NCBI GenBank assembly: GCA_031381715.1
Contig: JANMYC010001513.1
Coordinates: forward strand, 1-27,056
Direction of reading: 5' to 3'
Length of the DNA: 27,056 nt
From: Saprospiraceae bacterium
Lineage (GTDB): Bacteria; Bacteroidota; Bacteroidia; Chitinophagales; Saprospiraceae
Shown in pieces: positions 1-24,484 of the stretch. Position 1 is the first letter of the stretch; the number at the start of each line of letters is the position of its first letter. Below the pieces are notes generated by a model, which searched no databases, had not been told where the DNA came from, and saw only the letters and a list, made by a program, of their open reading frames with translations. The translations under genes and the position numbers were made by a program.

Positions 1-522
1 TTCGAGGATTATGCTCGAATGACACCACCCGATAGTGGCAACTATGAACTTCACAACGGAAAACTTATTTTTATGCCGAGTCCCCTTTTTTTACATCAAA
101 ATATAATTACTGAATTACTCCTTTTACTGGGTGCTTTTGTTAAAAAAAATCAGCTTGGAAAAGTTGTAGTTGCTCCAATGGATGTCATTTTAACAGAACA
201 CGATACTGTTCAACCCGATATTTTATTCATTTCAAAAGACCGTTTGAATATTATTGATGGGCAGGTGAAAGGTGCTCCAGATTTGGTCGTCGAAATTCTT
301 TCGGAAGGCAACACCGCGAAGGAAATGAGTTACAAAAAACACATTTTTGAGTCAACTGGCGTAAAAGAATATTGGTTGATTAATCCTGTTAAAAAGACGG
401 TGACGCAGTATAAAAATGAAGAAGGCGAGTTTTTTCCAATCCACATCTTGGATACTGAGGGGGTGCTTGAATCCATAGTTGTAGAGGGTTTTTCATTTAA
501 AATAGGTGATATTTTTCAATAA
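1..522 (+). CDS. Uma2/DUF820 family PD-(D/E)XK nuclease-fold protein, 5' end probably outside the window
   Basis: The frame is open from base 1 (FEDYARMTPP...). It carries typical Uma2 motifs: ELHNGKLIFMPSP..H, VQPDILFI, APDLVVEILS, GVKEYWLINP. Confidence 0.88.
   Translation, partial: FEDYARMTPPDSGNYELHNGKLIFMPSPLFLHQNIITELLLLLGAFVKKNQLGKVVVAPMDVILTEHDTVQPDILFISKDRLNIIDGQVKGAPDLVVEILSEGNTAKEMSYKKHIFESTGVKEYWLINPVKKTVTQYKNEEGEFFPIHILDTEGVLESIVVEGFSFKIGDIFQ
453..462 (-). repeat. CCCCTCAGTA motif, copy 1 (inside Uma2, antisense; codons GAT ACT GAG GGG = DTEG)
   Basis: Exact TACTGAGGGG on the + strand. Confidence 0.95.
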
Positions 523-541
523 TTTAAATAGTTATTCCCCT

Positions 542-581
542 AAAACGTGCTTTTCCCTATCTTTGCGGGAAAGCACGTTTT
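542..581 (+). terminator. Inverted repeat AAAACGTGCTTT(T)CCC / GGGAAAGCACGTTTT; candidate terminator of Uma2 or operator
   Basis: Near-perfect 15-bp arms followed by a T run, starting 20 nt after the Uma2 stop. Confidence 0.55.
558..565 (+). promoter_or_regulatory. Bacteroidota sigma-A -7 element TATCTTTG upstream of gatB
   Basis: Exact TAnnTTTG 63 nt before the gatB ATG. No clear -33 TTTG. Confidence 0.5.
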
Positions 582-628
582 TCATTTTTAAAAATTTCAA
601 AATAGCGAATAGAATCGCATCTAAATAT

Positions 629-2089
629 ATGACGATTTACGATACTTACGAAACCGTTATTGGTCTTGAAATACATGTGCAATTAGCCACTTTGAGTAAA
701 GCTTTTTGCTCCGATAGTGTGAAATTTGGCGGTGAACCGAATACCCAAACGTCGGTGATTTCACTGGCGCACCCAGGCACTTTACCCCGTTTGAATAAAA
801 AGCAAATTGAATATGCTGCCCGCTTGGGTTTTGCTTTAAACAGTGAAATAAGCCGTTTTAGTGCTTTTGATAGAAAAAACTACTTCTACGCCGACCTTCC
901 AAAAGGCTATCAAATTACGCAAGACAAAAAGCCGATTTGTGTAGGCGGTTCGTTAAAAATAATGACTTCAAAAGGGGAGAAGACCATCCGATTGCACCAC
1001 ATCCACATGGAAGAAGATGCCGGAAAATCCATCCACGACCACGACCCCTCAGTATCGTTCATTGATTTGAACCGTGCGGGCACGCCTTTGCTCGAAATAG
1101 TGACTGAACCCGATTTCAGAAGTGGTGAAGAAGTGGATGCATTCATGTCCGCCATGCGCCAATTGGTGCGTTGGCTCGAAGTCAGCGATGGCAATATGGA
1201 AGAAGGCTCAATGCGGTGCGATGTGAATATCTCGGTGCGTAAAAAAGGCACGACTGAATTCGGCACCCGCTGTGAAGTGAAAAATGTGAACTCAATGCGT
1301 TTTGCCCGCAAAGCGATTGAGTTTGAAACAAAACGCCAGATTGATTTGATTGAAAAGGGTGGGGTAGTGCAGCAAAACACCTTGAATTTTGACCCTATAA
1401 CAGGCAAAACTTCGCCATTGCGAAGCAAGGAAAATGCCCATGATTATCGCTATTTTCCTGACCCTGACCTTCCACCAATTATACTCAGTGAAGAATTGAT
1501 TTCTAAAATAAAAGCTGAGATGCCTCAGTTGCCTTGGGAAAGTAAAAAAGAGTTGATTGAAAAATATGGTTTGACGGAGTACGATGCCAATCTTTTAACC
1601 GAAGATATTTCTACGCTTGAAAATTATCTGTATTTTATAAAAGGTTTCAAATCAACGCTTTATAAGCCTGCGGCTAATCTTTTTATAAATAAATTTTTAC
1701 CAGCTATTCATGCTGATGAACATACATTTGTCAAAATTATGCGTCATTTTCACCAATGGCAGGAGATGTTGGAATTGATAGAAAGCGGTCAAATCAGTGC
1801 TTCGGCAGCCTATCAAAAGTTGTACACCACTATTTTGGAGAGCCCCTCAGTATCTACCACTGTTTTGACGATGGCGGAGAAATTAAATCTCATACAATCC
1901 ACTGATTCTGATTTTTTGGCTGATGTCGTGAAAGAAGTCTTAGCTAAAAATCCCGATAAAGTCGCTGAATTTAAGAAAGGTAAAAAAGGGCTTATTGGCT
2001 TTTTCATGGGCGAGGTCATGAAAGCCTCAAAAGGTAAAGCAGAACCGAAATCAACGAATGCTCTGATTTTGAAATTGATTGAAGAGTAA
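629..2089 (+). CDS. gatB: Asp-tRNA(Asn)/Glu-tRNA(Gln) amidotransferase subunit B
   Basis: Motifs VIGLEIHVQL, PGTLPRLN, FDRKNYFYADLPKGYQITQ, HMEEDAGK, DLNRAGTPLLEIVTEPD, EGSMRCDVNISVR and YRYFPDPDLPP, plus a C-terminal Yqey-like tail. Start moved to ATG 629 because the upstream 41 codons are non-homologous and overlap the promoter. Confidence 0.97.
   Translation: MTIYDTYETVIGLEIHVQLATLSKAFCSDSVKFGGEPNTQTSVISLAHPGTLPRLNKKQIEYAARLGFALNSEISRFSAFDRKNYFYADLPKGYQITQDKKPICVGGSLKIMTSKGEKTIRLHHIHMEEDAGKSIHDHDPSVSFIDLNRAGTPLLEIVTEPDFRSGEEVDAFMSAMRQLVRWLEVSDGNMEEGSMRCDVNISVRKKGTTEFGTRCEVKNVNSMRFARKAIEFETKRQIDLIEKGGVVQQNTLNFDPITGKTSPLRSKENAHDYRYFPDPDLPPIILSEELISKIKAEMPQLPWESKKELIEKYGLTEYDANLLTEDISTLENYLYFIKGFKSTLYKPAANLFINKFLPAIHADEHTFVKIMRHFHQWQEMLELIESGQISASAAYQKLYTTILESPSVSTTVLTMAEKLNLIQSTDSDFLADVVKEVLAKNPDKVAEFKKGKKGLIGFFMGEVMKASKGKAEPKSTNALILKLIEE
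1045..1054 (+). repeat. CCCCTCAGTA motif, copy 2 (gatB, GAC CCC TCA GTA = DPSV)
   Basis: Exact match. Confidence 0.95.
1843..1852 (+). repeat. CCCCTCAGTA motif, copy 3 (gatB, AGC CCC TCA GTA = SPSV)
   Basis: Exact match. Confidence 0.95.
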
Positions 2090-2095
2090 CAAAAA

Positions 2096-2133
2096 CGTGA
2101 CATCCCGATTTATCAGGATGCCACGGGTTTTTT
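2096..2133. terminator. Probable bidirectional intrinsic terminator between convergent gatB and the TonB-dependent receptor
   Basis: Stem CGTG-A-CATCC / GGATG-C-CACG, with an A run on the left and a T run on the right. Confidence 0.65.
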
Positions 2134-2134
2134 A

Positions 2135-22708: not shown

Positions 22709-23074
22709 ATGATACAGGCAGAATCAAGATTAAGAGTGGCGGATAACAGTGGTGCAAAAGAAGTTCTTTGTATCCGTGTACTAGGTGGCTCGAAGCGCCG
22801 TTATGCTTCAATCGGTGACAAAATAGTTGTTACTGTAAAAGATGCAACACCAGGTGGTGTGAAAAAAGGTTCGGTTTCAAAAGCAGTAATTGTGCGTACT
22901 CGTAAGGAAATCCGTCGTAAAGATGGTTCTTACATTCGTTTCGATGACAACGCTTGCGTACTTTTAACAGCATCTGATGAACCTCGTGGTTCTCGTATAT
23001 TTGGTCCAGTAGCTCGTGAGCTTCGTGACAAAGATTATATGAGAATTGTCTCATTGGCACCAGAAGTTCTGTAA
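22709..23074 (+). CDS. rplN: 50S ribosomal protein uL14
   Basis: [43 protein letters not shown]. Confidence 0.99.
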
Positions 23075-23183
23075 TCGCATTTCAAAGTATTCAAATAAAA
23101 GTTAAGTGTTTTTTAAGTGTTGAATTCGACTAATTTTAGCAGTATTTCAATAACAAATTTCACTACTCAATATTTTAAGTAAA

Positions 23184-23516
23184 ATGGCAACAAAAAGATT
23201 CGCACCTAAGCTCCGTATCAAAACAGGTGACGCGGTGATGGTTATCACAGGCGAAGATAAAGGCAAAACTGGTTCAGTTATCAAGGTATTTCCTTCTGAA
23301 AATAAGGCAATCGTTGAAGGCGTTCGTTTGGCTACTAAACATCGCAAACCCACACAAACAAGTGCTGGTGGAAGAGAACAAATTGAATTACCAATTCAAA
23401 TCTCTAATGTTATGCTTGTTGACCCTCAATCAAGTGCTCCTACTCGTGTAGGTCGCCGCGAAGAAGGTGGAAAATTAGTTCGCTATTCTAAAAAATCAGG
23501 TCAAACTATTAAGTAA
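23184..23516 (+). CDS. rplX: 50S ribosomal protein uL24
   Basis: [28 protein letters not shown]. Confidence 0.98.
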
Positions 23517-24064
23517 TGAGCTACGTACCTAGACTTAAGACAAAATATCGTGATGAGATTGCTGCTGCTTTAATGGAGCAATTTCAATACAAGACTGTGA
23601 TGCAAGTACCTAAAGTAACTAAGATTTGTATTAATCAAGGTGTCGGAGGTGCTACACAGGATAAAAAGCTTGTGGAAGTTGCTGTCAATGAAATGACTAC
23701 TATTGCTGGTCAAAAGGCGGTATCAACTAAAGCGCGCACTTCTATATCTAACTTTAAACTTCGTGAAAAAATGCCAATTGGTGTACGTGTGACACTTCGT
23801 GGCGATAATATGTACGAATTTCTTGATAGATTGATTAGTATCGCTCTACCACGTGTGCGTGATTTCAAAGGCGTAAATGATAGAAGTTTTGACGGTCGTG
23901 GAAATTATACCATGGGCGTTACTGAACAAATCATTTTTCCTGAAATTGATATTGACAAAATCAATAAAATTCAAGGTATGGACATTACTTTTGTAACAAC
24001 AGCTAAGACTGACGCAGAGGCTTTGGCATTGTTAAAAGGAATGGGAATGCCTTTCAAAAAATAA
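23516..24064 (+). CDS. rplE: 50S ribosomal protein uL5
   Basis: [41 protein letters not shown]. 1-nt overlap with rplX (TAATG). Confidence 0.99.
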
Positions 24065-24076
24065 TTCTAGAATACA

Positions 24077-24346
24077 ATGGCTAAGAAATCAATCATAGCA
24101 AGAGAAAAGAAGCGCGAACGCATGGTGGCTCATTATGCTGAATTGCGCACTAAATTGAAAGCAGAAGGTAACTGGGAAGAATTAGATAAGCTTCCTCGCA
24201 ATGGTTCTAAGGTGCGTTTGCACAACCGCTGCCAGCTTACTGGACGTCCTAAAGGTTATATGCGTGACTTTGGTGTCAATCGTTACACTTTCCGGTTGAT
24301 GGCATTAAACGGAAAAATACCAGGCGTGACTAAAGCTTCTTGGTAA
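24077..24346 (+). CDS. rpsN: 30S ribosomal protein uS14, 89-aa zinc-independent (C-minus) type
   Basis: [31 protein letters not shown]. Only one Cys. Confidence 0.98.
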
Positions 24347-24474
24347 TCATGTGGTGAAAAAAATAGATGGGTCGATTAAGTTGTAAATTCTATTTCTTTT
24401 CACCTCAAAGTATTCTTATTCCAAAAATTTAAATCGGCTGGGGCAGGTCAGTTTCACACCTATTTAACTGATAC

Positions 24475-24484
24475 CCCCTCAGTA
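24475..24484 (+). repeat. CCCCTCAGTA motif, copy 15 (rpsN-rpsH spacer; GATACCCCCTCAGTAG)
   Basis: Exact match. Confidence 0.95.

What the first reader, a model, noticed from the sequence alone, without database searches (positions are those of the whole stretch)
453..24484. A non-palindromic 10-mer, CCCCTCAGTA, occurs 15 times on both strands: candidate DNA-uptake-sequence/HIP-like genome signal in Bacteroidota
Seen: exact copies at 453(-), 1045(+), 1843(+), 3002(-), 3718(-), 4991(+), 10279(-), 12211(-), 14868(+), 16650(+), 17537(-), 19878(+), 20339(+), 22548(+) and 24475(+), about one per 1.8 kb. They are dispersed singly through unrelated genes and spacers. The flanks are biased: A precedes the C run in 13/15 copies, T follows in 10/15, and GAYA precedes the C run in 6/15, giving roughly GAYA-C4-6-TCAGTA-T. 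Rough estimate: assuming about 36% GC (not computed) and independent bases, about 0.02 copies are expected in 27 kb on both strands. Established: Neisseria DUS (GCCGTCTGAA) and Pasteurellaceae USS (AAGTGCGGT) are short, non-palindromic and two-stranded, and occur about once per 1-1.3 kb in genes and spacers; cyanobacterial HIP1 is similarly iterated. Inference: this organism has a dedicated DNA- or RNA-binding system reading this word, for example self-DNA-selective uptake, a recombination/repair hotspot, a nucleoid-organising protein, a methylation-linked site or a particle-packaging signal. I know of no DUS-like motif in this phylum, but I cannot verify that it is new.
Basis: partly seen in the sequence, partly recalled or inferred. 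Interest (0 to 1): 0.92.

Follow-up and report, generated by a model that had tools for sequence, protein, structure and literature searches.

The report
Uptake-signal-like DNA word in Saprospiraceae
An uncultured freshwater Saprospiraceae bacterium, 20 sister species and their phages write the DNA word CCCCTCAGTA, followed by helically phased T-rich tracts, about once per 1.4 kb. The pattern matches the self-recognition "uptake signals" of Haemophilus and Neisseria, which I found no paper reporting in this phylum, and these genomes lack the pilus those systems use.

Summary
All 15 copies are where stated. The genome holds 4,759 copies (about 5 expected), and CCCCTCAGTA is its commonest 10-mer. 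The word is a DNA-level signal:
- It is equally frequent on both strands and on sense and antisense strands of genes.
- It is spaced more evenly than chance.
- It is about twice as dense in spacers as in genes.
- It occupies 80-93% of all peptide sites that could spell it, and the tripeptides it encodes are 2-4 times over-represented.

New here: the 3' flank carries a strong 10.4-bp A/T oscillation over about five helical turns. This is the architecture of the Haemophilus USS.

The word is abundant in 21 of 33 species of one GTDB genus. It is not abundant in the other 12 species or in 149 other genera of the family. It is conserved between species, and temperate phages carry it at host density, as phages of Pasteurellaceae carry the USS.

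comEC, comF and a ComEA-like gene are found in nearly every species of both groups (dprA was checked only in this genome), but no type IV pilus ATPase. No reader protein was identified.

Best reading: a USS/DUS-like uptake or self-recognition signal (about 0.5). The main rival is a docking site for a DNA-wrapping protein. Earlier notes of this scan describe the same kind of word in Saprospiraceae on other DNA.

The parts
453..462 (-). motif copy CCCCTCAGTA
1045..1054 (+). motif copy inside gatB-like ORF 506-2089
1843..1852 (+). motif copy inside gatB-like ORF
3002..3011 (-). motif copy, sense strand of ORF 2135-4525 (-)
3718..3727 (-). motif copy, sense strand of ORF 2135-4525 (-)
4991..5000 (+). 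motif copy; one of only two in the 7.1-kb segment that is missing at the syntenic place in relative G009
10279..10288 (-). motif copy just after the stop of ORF 9767-10270
12211..12220 (-). motif copy in ORF 12152-13132 (-); kept in G009 and G008
14868..14877 (+). motif copy in hybrid kinase ORF 13983-15938; kept in G009
16650..16659 (+). intergenic motif copy; kept in G009 and G008
17537..17546 (-). intergenic motif copy upstream of the ribosomal-protein cluster; G013 has a one-mismatch version at the same place
19878..19887 (+). intergenic motif copy between ribosomal-protein genes, at the same spacer position in G013
20339..20348 (+). intergenic motif copy between ribosomal-protein genes, at the same spacer position in G013
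22548..22557 (+). motif copy spelling the conserved P-L-S-K of ribosomal protein S17 by synonymous codons (exact in G021, one mismatch in G013, other codons in motif-free G007 and G003)
24475..24484 (+). intergenic motif copy at the same spacer position in G013 and G021

Best explanation
The word is the core of a composite DNA signal of about 60 bp: A, then 4 to 6 C, then TCAGTA, then T, followed on its 3' side by four to five T/A-rich tracts spaced one helical turn apart. It most likely works like the uptake signal sequences of Pasteurellaceae (USS) and Neisseriaceae (DUS). In that model a surface or periplasmic part of the DNA-uptake apparatus binds the core. The phased tracts let the duplex bend as it is taken in. 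Fragments carrying the word are taken up preferentially and recombined. Over time this bias (molecular drive, perhaps aided by selection) writes the word into genes, spacers and resident prophages by point substitution.

Shown here: the statistics, the anatomy, the clade restriction, the conservation, the effect on proteins, the phage copies, and the presence of comEC, comF, a four-domain ComEA-like gene and dprA.

Inferred only: that DNA uptake is the process involved, and which protein reads the word. Because no type IV pilus ATPase was found, the outer-membrane step would have to differ from all known uptake-sequence systems.
For: 1. Abundance and sharpness. There are 4,759 copies against roughly 5 expected, and 1-8 copies in motif-free congeners. 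Exact copies outnumber all one-mismatch variants about 4 to 1.
2. DNA-level signal, not RNA-level. Genic copies are 1,621 sense and 1,620 antisense. No replication-type polarity is seen over 160 kb of G013.
3. Even spacing. The coefficient of variation of spacing is 0.69 against 0.99 for random placement (P<0.0002). Variance/mean of tile counts is 0.53-0.61. Even spacing and lack of orientation bias are described for USS/DUS (PMC1939737).
4. One-sided helically phased T/A tracts. The period is 10.4-10.5 bp and AT swings between 41% and 90% in spacers. The pattern is present in genic and intergenic copies and absent around control words. It is reproduced in other species. The Haemophilus USS is a 9-bp core with helically phased T tracts on one side (PMC3458573).
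5. Substitution, not insertion, and strong enough to change proteins. The word fills 80-93% of compatible peptide sites. TEG, PSV, PLS, LRG and PQY are 2-4.4 times over-represented in G000 and G013 but not in G007.
6. Distribution by context. Density is 2.0/kb in convergent spacers, 1.55/kb in co-directional, 0.90/kb in divergent and 0.57/kb in genes. Of 63 close inverted pairs, 62 are intergenic stem-loops, as with DUS pairs.
7. Clade restriction. The word is abundant in 21 of 33 species of the genus and in none of 149 other genera sampled. A different hyper-abundant word occurs in two other genera of the family.
8. Maintenance. All 13 sites are kept against G009, with 0 of 130 motif bases changed where 5.6 were expected. 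Spacer copies are kept at about 70% nucleotide identity.
9. Phages. Contigs with terminase, portal and tape-measure genes carry 0.33-0.83 copies/kb. The two densest near-complete ones encode integrases. USS accumulates in the same way in temperate Pasteurellaceae phages (PMC6776037).
10. Competence genes. comEC, comF, a ComEA-like gene with four HHH_3 domains and dprA are present. Bacteroidota can be naturally competent without type IV pili (PMC8459023).
Against: - No PilB/PilT-type ATPase exists in the genus. Every known uptake-sequence system uses a type IV pilus, and its minor pilins are the known or proposed receptors.
- The competence genes checked across the genus (comEC, comF, ComEA-like) are equally present in the 12 motif-free species, so they do not explain the difference.
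- No gene with a perfect presence/absence match to the motif was found. The TonB-dependent barrel beside the com cluster has orthologues in only 14 of 21 motif-bearing genomes.
- No member of the clade is known to be transformable, and none appears to be cultured.
- Phasing over five turns and 80-93% filling of the compatible coding sites fit a protein that wraps DNA inside the cell equally well.
Confidence: 0.5

Rival explanations
1. The word is the docking site of a clade-specific intracellular DNA-architectural protein (a nucleoid-associated, gyrase-like or loop-anchoring factor). The protein binds the 10-bp core and wraps about 50 bp of flanking DNA. Selection keeps roughly one site per kilobase.
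For: The A/T signal is phased at 10.4 bp for five turns on one side, with weak phasing out to about 85 bp on both sides. This is the classic signature of DNA wrapped on a protein surface. Spacing is even. Positions are conserved between species. Phages that replicate in these cells also carry the word.
Against: No clade-specific HU/IHF paralogue exists: there is one HU gene in both classes. No candidate protein was found. Sites turn over at deeper divergence (4 of 9 kept at about 81% identity), which argues against site-by-site positional function. Karlin's similar argument for USS was superseded by uptake (PMC1939737).
Confidence: 0.22
2. The word is a by-product of a sequence-specific biased repair or gene-conversion system (as proposed for HIP1, or like very-short-patch repair). 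The system corrects near-matches towards the word and the word has no function of its own.
For: Compatible sites are nearly all filled. Exact copies dominate over one-mismatch variants. Any DNA resident in the cell, including prophages, would be affected.
Against: Such a process does not explain the even spacing or the co-evolved phased flanks extending 50 bp beyond the core. No motif-specific methyltransferase partner appeared in three motif-bearing against two motif-free genomes.
Confidence: 0.1
3. The word is a self-marker read by a nuclease or defence system, in the way Chi halts RecBCD. DNA lacking the word is degraded or silenced, and phages are selected to mimic the host.
For: Phage genomes carry the word at host-like density, including one complete phage in which no integrase was found (0.33/kb). 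The clade restriction fits a lineage-specific system.
Against: There is no strand polarity relative to replication, unlike Chi and KOPS. A 10-bp core with a 50-bp bent flank is unlike any known Chi. No candidate system was identified.
Confidence: 0.08
4. The copies are remnants or ends of a tiny mobile element (MITE/REP-like), or an assembly or sequencing artefact.
For: Close copies occur as inverted pairs in spacers.
Against: Flanks share no sequence, only composition. Two thirds of copies lie in frame inside genes and arise by substitution at conserved residues, such as S17 PLSK. The same word occurs in 21 independently assembled species, in phage contigs, and the window itself was found in sequencing runs of 12 studies.
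Confidence: 0.02

Closest known systems
[quoted passage not shown]
   Same: Short non-palindromic core with helically phased T tracts on one side only. About one copy per 1.2-1.4 kb, on both strands, evenly spaced, in genes and spacers. Arises by substitution and enriches the tripeptides it encodes. Accumulates in temperate phages of the host up to host-like density (PMC3458573, PMC1939737, PMC2817400, PMC6776037).
   Different: Different phylum (Bacteroidota) and different word. Four to five phased tracts rather than two. A C run of variable length (4-9). No type IV pilus or secretin-ATPase machinery was detected. Preferential uptake is untested.
DNA uptake sequence (DUS) of Neisseriaceae (GCCGTCTGAA, 12-mer AT-DUS; receptor: minor pilin ComP)
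   Same: 10-bp exact core with a 1-2 bp extension. Similar density. Inverted pairs form stem-loops downstream of genes. Clade-restricted, with other words in related lineages.
   Different: DUS has no phased flanks. Its receptor is a type IV pilin, which this genus seems unable to make. The other word found in this family (GGTATGAAATGG) is unrelated in sequence, not a one-letter dialect.
HIP1 (GCGATCGC) of cyanobacteria
   Same: Hyper-abundant, quasi-periodic, conserved beyond codon expectation. Function long unknown and now proposed to aid transformation (PMC5861425, PMC13756078).
   Different: HIP1 is a palindromic 8-mer tied to two methyltransferases. Here the word is asymmetric, and no motif-specific methyltransferase was seen in the genomes sampled.
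Chi and KOPS polar octamers
   Same: Over-represented short asymmetric words read by DNA-processing motors.
   Different: Chi and KOPS are strongly co-oriented with replication and are 5-10 times rarer. This word shows no polarity.

Membership tests
USS/DUS-type DNA uptake sequences | Short word hundreds- to thousand-fold over-represented, about 1 per kb, genome-wide | tested here: met
   4,759 copies in 6.84 Mb; the most abundant 10-mer; motif-free relatives have 1-8
USS/DUS-type DNA uptake sequences | Both orientations equally frequent, no replication polarity, spacing more even than random | tested here: met
   2,387 + against 2,372 -; mixed orientation over 160 kb; spacing CV 0.69 against 0.99
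USS/DUS-type DNA uptake sequences | Present in genes by substitution, with enrichment of the encoded peptides; denser in spacers and 3' ends | tested here: met
USS/DUS-type DNA uptake sequences | Restricted to a clade, with other words (dialects) in related lineages | tested here: inconclusive
   Restriction is shown: 21 of 33 species of the genus, 0 of 149 other genera. A different, unrelated word is abundant in two other genera. No close dialect was found; CCCCCCAGTAT is not abundant anywhere sampled. Motif-free congeners have no substitute word.
USS/DUS-type DNA uptake sequences | Preferential uptake or transformation by DNA carrying the word | not testable with these tools
   Needs a culture or enrichment and an uptake assay
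USS/DUS-type DNA uptake sequences | Type IV pilus machinery with a minor-pilin receptor (ComP; ComN proposed) | tested here: not met
   Across the 33 genomes, PF00437 gave only weak P-loop matches below the cut-off, apart from three sporadic partial matches in three genomes
USS/DUS-type DNA uptake sequences | Inner-membrane and cytoplasmic competence genes (comEC, comF, comEA, dprA) | tested here: met
   Present in G000 and found in nearly all of the genus, in motif-free species too (dprA looked for in G000 only)
Pasteurellaceae USS specifically | Core flanked on one side by helically phased T-rich tracts | tested here: met
   Period 10.4-10.5 bp, amplitude 0.147 over +10..+51, controls flat, reproduced in other species
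Pasteurellaceae USS specifically | Accumulation in temperate phages of the host | tested here: met
   0.71 and 0.76 copies/kb in two phage genomes that encode integrases; compare PMC6776037
HIP1-type iterated palindromes | Palindromic word recognised by cognate orphan methyltransferases | tested here: not met
   The word is not a palindrome. G013 has no PF01555 gene at all. The one PF00145 orthologue common to motif-bearing genomes is also in motif-free ones (only five genomes sampled).
Chi / KOPS polar motifs | Strong co-orientation with the replication direction | tested here: not met
   Adjacent copies share orientation 53% of the time; there is no correlation with GC skew; orientation is mixed over 160 kb
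REP / MITE repeats | Longer conserved, usually palindromic units confined to spacers | tested here: not met
   68% of copies are genic; flanks are conserved in composition only

The most novel reading that the evidence does not exclude
This is a true DNA uptake/self-recognition sequence system in Bacteroidota. I found no paper reporting one in this phylum, and it would be the first to work without a type IV pilus. In this reading, a bent, motif-tagged duplex is captured by a new outer-membrane route, possibly the TonB-dependent barrel encoded beside comF-comEC-comEA-mltA. It is then handed to a ComEA-like protein whose four tandem HhH domains match the four to five phased A/T tracts.
Probability: 0.3. 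Interest if true: 0.9.

Novelty: new variant of a known kind. Interest (0 to 1): 0.8.

Why it matters
Sequence-specific DNA uptake has been established in only two proteobacterial families; more recently HIP1 of cyanobacteria has been proposed to act in the same way. A third, independent case in Bacteroidota would matter for several reasons:
- It has the same genomic hallmarks down to helically phased T tracts, but no type IV pilus. That would suggest such "self tags" are a convergent and more widespread outcome of natural transformation.
- It would point to an unknown outer-membrane DNA-import route.
- The genus offers a natural 21-against-12 presence/absence contrast for finding the receptor.
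- The word is a practical marker. It assigns contigs, plasmids and phages to this host clade. It exposed a mixed bin (G015) and linked several IMG/VR phages to a host.
- If the rival reading is right, the word would mark a new sequence-specific DNA-wrapping protein that constrains about 4% of the genome.

Tried and rejected
- Strand polarity. An apparent run of 40 '+' copies in G013:C6 was an artefact of how matches were listed. The fetched sequence shows mixed orientation.
- Dialect in motif-free congeners. Nothing comparable was found in 200 kb of G007, 88 kb of G015, or 20 kb each of G019 and G017.
- Decaying motif in G015. It has 39 exact copies but no excess of one-mismatch variants, and a second ComEC that nests among motif-bearing species. 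It is therefore a mixed bin, not an intermediate.
- Reader candidates checked against the 21/12 pattern:
  - ComEC, ComF and the ComEA-like protein are present in both classes.
  - The T2SSE ATPase is essentially absent from the genus.
  - HU is single-copy in both classes.
  - The N6_N4, N6 and C5 methyltransferase families show no class-specific member in five genomes.
  - The TonB-dependent barrel beside the com cluster occurs only in motif-bearing species, but in just 14 of 21.
- Long motif-free gaps do not differ in GC content.
- Laying contigs of four metagenome runs gave only a truncated list of differences (40 of 1,582), so no test of conservation among strains was possible.
- Phasing around the second word (G119) could not be judged with 57 copies.
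- A literature search by sequence returned only unrelated primer matches among the papers listed.

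
Full report
**1. The observation**

All 15 exact copies of CCCCTCAGTA lie at the stated coordinates and strands. Dinucleotide-preserving shuffles give 0.01 copies.

The window belongs to a 6.84-Mb, 1,609-contig assembly with 37.7% GC. It comes from an uncultured Saprospiraceae bacterium. The window was detected in freshwater, sediment and aquaculture metagenome runs from 12 studies.

Genome-wide there are 4,759 copies (2,387 +, 2,372 -), one per 1.44 kb. This is the most abundant 10-mer in the genome, three times commoner than the commonest A/T-only 10-mer. Base composition predicts about 5 copies (my arithmetic). Motif-free relatives have 1-8. Each of the 30 one-mismatch variants has only 4-170 copies.

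The consensus is A, 4-6 C, TCAGTA, T. The C run has length 4 in 43% of copies, 5 in 42% and 6-9 in 15%.

**2. A DNA-level signal written by substitution**

I used crude ORF calls covering 83% of the genome as coding.
- 1,621 copies lie on the sense strand of genes, 1,620 on the antisense strand, and 1,518 in spacers or across gene ends.
- The one antisense reading frame that would create a TGA stop is empty.
- In the five permitted frames, 80-93% of all peptide sites that could spell the word synonymously do so. That is 304-1,092 sites per class against 1-7.5 expected from codon usage.
- The encoded tripeptides TEG, PSV, PLS, LRG and PQY are 2.1-4.4 times over-represented in this genome and in G013. 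Their reversed or permuted versions are not. None of them is over-represented in motif-free G007. The word has therefore also driven amino-acid changes.
- In ribosomal protein S17 the conserved P-L-S-K is spelled with the word here and in G021, with one mismatch in G013, and with other codons in motif-free G007 and G003.

**3. Distribution**

Density by context:

| Context | Copies per kb |
|---|---|
| Convergent spacers | 2.0 |
| Co-directional spacers | 1.55 |
| Divergent (promoter) spacers | 0.90 |
| Genes | 0.57 |

- Copies closer than 60 bp are almost always inverted (63 against 4). Of these, 62 are intergenic stem-loops.
- Spacing is more even than random. In 160 kb of G013 the coefficient of variation is 0.69 against 0.99 for random placement (0 of 5,000 simulations as low). 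In this genome the variance/mean of tile counts is 0.53-0.61.
- No contig of 4 kb or more is significantly depleted at the 1% level.
- There is no replication-type polarity.

**4. New anatomy: phased flanks**

The 3' flank shows a damped oscillation of A/T content with a 10.4-bp period.
- Peaks lie near +10 to +12, +20, +31, +41 and +52, counted from the first C of the core. Troughs lie near +16, +26, +36 and +47.
- In spacers, AT swings from 41% to 90%. The same phase is seen in copies deep inside genes.
- The amplitude is 0.147 over +10..+51 and 0.039 over +52..+93. Upstream it is about 0.03 at the same period.
- Five control words of similar make-up give flat profiles.
- The per-copy score is shifted as a whole, so this is a property of most copies.
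- The pattern recurs in G013 (161 copies, best period 10.5) and in loci of five other motif-bearing species.

The functional unit is therefore a specific core plus about 50 bp of intrinsically bent or bendable DNA on one side. [quoted passage not shown]

**5. Phylogenetic distribution and stability**

- In the GTDB genus (33 genomes held), 21 species have thousands of copies (0.46-0.95 per kb) and 12 have background numbers.
- G015 has 39 copies with no excess of near-variants, and a second ComEC that nests among motif-bearing species. It is a mixed bin.
- On a ComEC tree the motif-bearing species form three well-supported groups inside an unresolved fork. A single origin is not excluded.
- These species are only about 70% identical in ribosomal-protein DNA, yet they share the identical word.
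- None of 149 other genera of the family has more than 14 copies.
- Motif-free congeners have no replacement word.
It is the top k-mer in 297 kb of G119.
- Against the close relative G009 (95.7% identity over 19.6 kb), all 13 alignable sites are kept. None of 130 motif bases differs, where 5.6 differences were expected (Poisson P about 0.004).
- At about 81% identity (G008), 4 of 9 sites are kept against about 1 expected. At about 70% identity, spacer copies in the ribosomal cluster still sit at the same places.

**6. Phages**

A scan of IMG/VR with one 14-mer found several viral contigs with many copies. They encode terminase, portal, tape measure, baseplate and helicase-primase proteins.

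Whole records:

| Record | Length | Completeness | Copies | Copies per kb |
|---|---|---|---|---|
| G198 | 42.3 kb | complete | 30 | 0.71 |
| G199 | 36.8 kb | 85% | 28 | 0.76 |
| G200 | 9.6 kb | 15% | 8 | 0.83 |
| G201 | 22.8 kb | 53% | 17 | 0.75 |
| G202 | 42.0 kb | complete | 14 | 0.33 |

The two densest large genomes (G198, G199) encode tyrosine integrases. No integrase was found in the complete 0.33/kb genome. This mirrors Pasteurellaceae, where temperate phages accumulate USS up to a host-like plateau and large, probably lytic phages do not (PMC6776037).

**7. Machinery**

- comEC is found in 32 of 33 genomes and comF in 32 of 33, in both classes.
- Next to comEC lie a membrane-anchored protein with four tandem ComEA-type HHH_3 domains and an MltA-like lytic transglycosylase. 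This holds in both classes.
- dprA is present in this genome.
- No real PilB/PilT/GspE-type ATPase exists in the genus, so a type IV pilus is very unlikely.
- Bacteroidota can nevertheless be naturally competent with a non-pilus machinery (Riemerella; PMC8459023).
- In six genomes of one motif-bearing subclade (G013, G021, G047, G045, G006, G001), a TonB-dependent-receptor-like barrel follows the com cluster. Its orthologues (at least 72% identity) occur in 14 of 21 motif-bearing genomes and 0 of 12 motif-free ones. This is suggestive, but it is neither necessary for the motif nor free of phylogenetic confounding.
- No class-specific methyltransferase (five genomes) and no extra HU/IHF paralogue was seen.
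- The match between four HhH domains and four to five phased tracts is my speculation.

**8. Interpretation**

Every genomic hallmark of USS/DUS that can be tested on sequence is met, including two unusual ones: one-sided phased T tracts and accumulation in temperate phages. The defining functional features, biased uptake and a receptor, are untested. The pilus machinery that all known systems use is absent.

I therefore do not file this as a member of the USS/DUS family. I say that it most likely works like one (about 0.5). If so, it uses a new outer-membrane route.

The main rival is an intracellular protein that binds the core and wraps the flank (about 0.2). It explains the phasing and spacing equally well but has no candidate protein. 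Biased repair alone does not explain the spacing or the flanks. Polar motifs, mobile-element remnants and artefact are excluded.

**9. Novelty**

Searches of the held literature by sequence and by topic found no uptake-type word described in Bacteroidota. Earlier notes of this scan describe the same kind of word in Saprospiraceae on other DNA (e1-4262795, at least 19 species; e1-3843565). The finding is therefore not unique within the scan. It adds the phased-flank anatomy, the 21/12 contrast within one genus, the conservation test, the phage link and the pilus-free competence locus.

Noticed in passing
window 4589-11677: This 7.1-kb segment is missing at the syntenic place in the close relative G009, where flanks 95% identical are joined by about 280 bp. 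It holds a 1,097-aa ORF, a LytTR regulator and three more ORFs. It has the lowest GC of the window (32-34%) and only two motif copies, and it contains one of the longest motif-free stretches of the genome (5.3 kb). It is probably a recent insertion.
   Followed up: partly
L162:2953-11890 (G013:C7), also L168, L169, L164, L163: Competence locus comF, comEC (DUF4131 + Competence), a ComEA-like protein with four tandem HHH_3 domains, an MltA/3D-domain lytic transglycosylase and, in one subclade, a TonB-dependent-receptor-like outer-membrane barrel. Orthologues of the barrel occur in 14 of 21 motif-bearing genomes and 0 of 12 motif-free ones. It is a candidate pilus-independent DNA-uptake machine.
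   Followed up: partly
G015 (L150 = C73; L160 = C83): This bin holds two ComEC genes. One groups with motif-free G017 and G048. The other sits on a 2.2-kb contig and nests among motif-bearing species. Together with 39 exact motif copies and no excess of near-variants, this marks a mixed bin. The word works as a binning check.
   Followed up: yes
G119 (L170-L189) and G163: A second, unrelated hyper-abundant word, GGTATGAAATGG(T), is the top k-mer in another genus of the family (57 copies of the 10-mer core in 297 kb; 440 copies of the 12-mer in 3.8 Mb). It is moderately abundant in a third genus.
   Followed up: partly
L081-L090 (G007) and L163 (G041:C3:641000-660999): Other repeated words were seen: GCGTTCGGCAAATCGCG about 20 times in 200 kb of motif-free G007, and GAAGCGAGCGC 16 times within 20 kb of G041. 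They may be REP-like elements or a local array.
   Followed up: no
L194/L226 (IMGVR_UViG_3300046336_000213), L261 (IMGVR_UViG_3300048691_000223), L257, L271/L209, L245: These phage genomes carry the host word at 0.33-0.83 copies per kb, so they can be assigned to this Saprospiraceae clade. L261:10225-11631 encodes a fusion of a ParB-like domain and a DNA methyltransferase.
   Followed up: partly
window 17574-27026: This is a ribosomal-protein gene cluster (S10/spc type). Its spacers carry motif copies only in the sense orientation in G000, G013 and G021. Genome-wide the sense bias in co-directional spacers is mild (421 against 349).
   Followed up: partly
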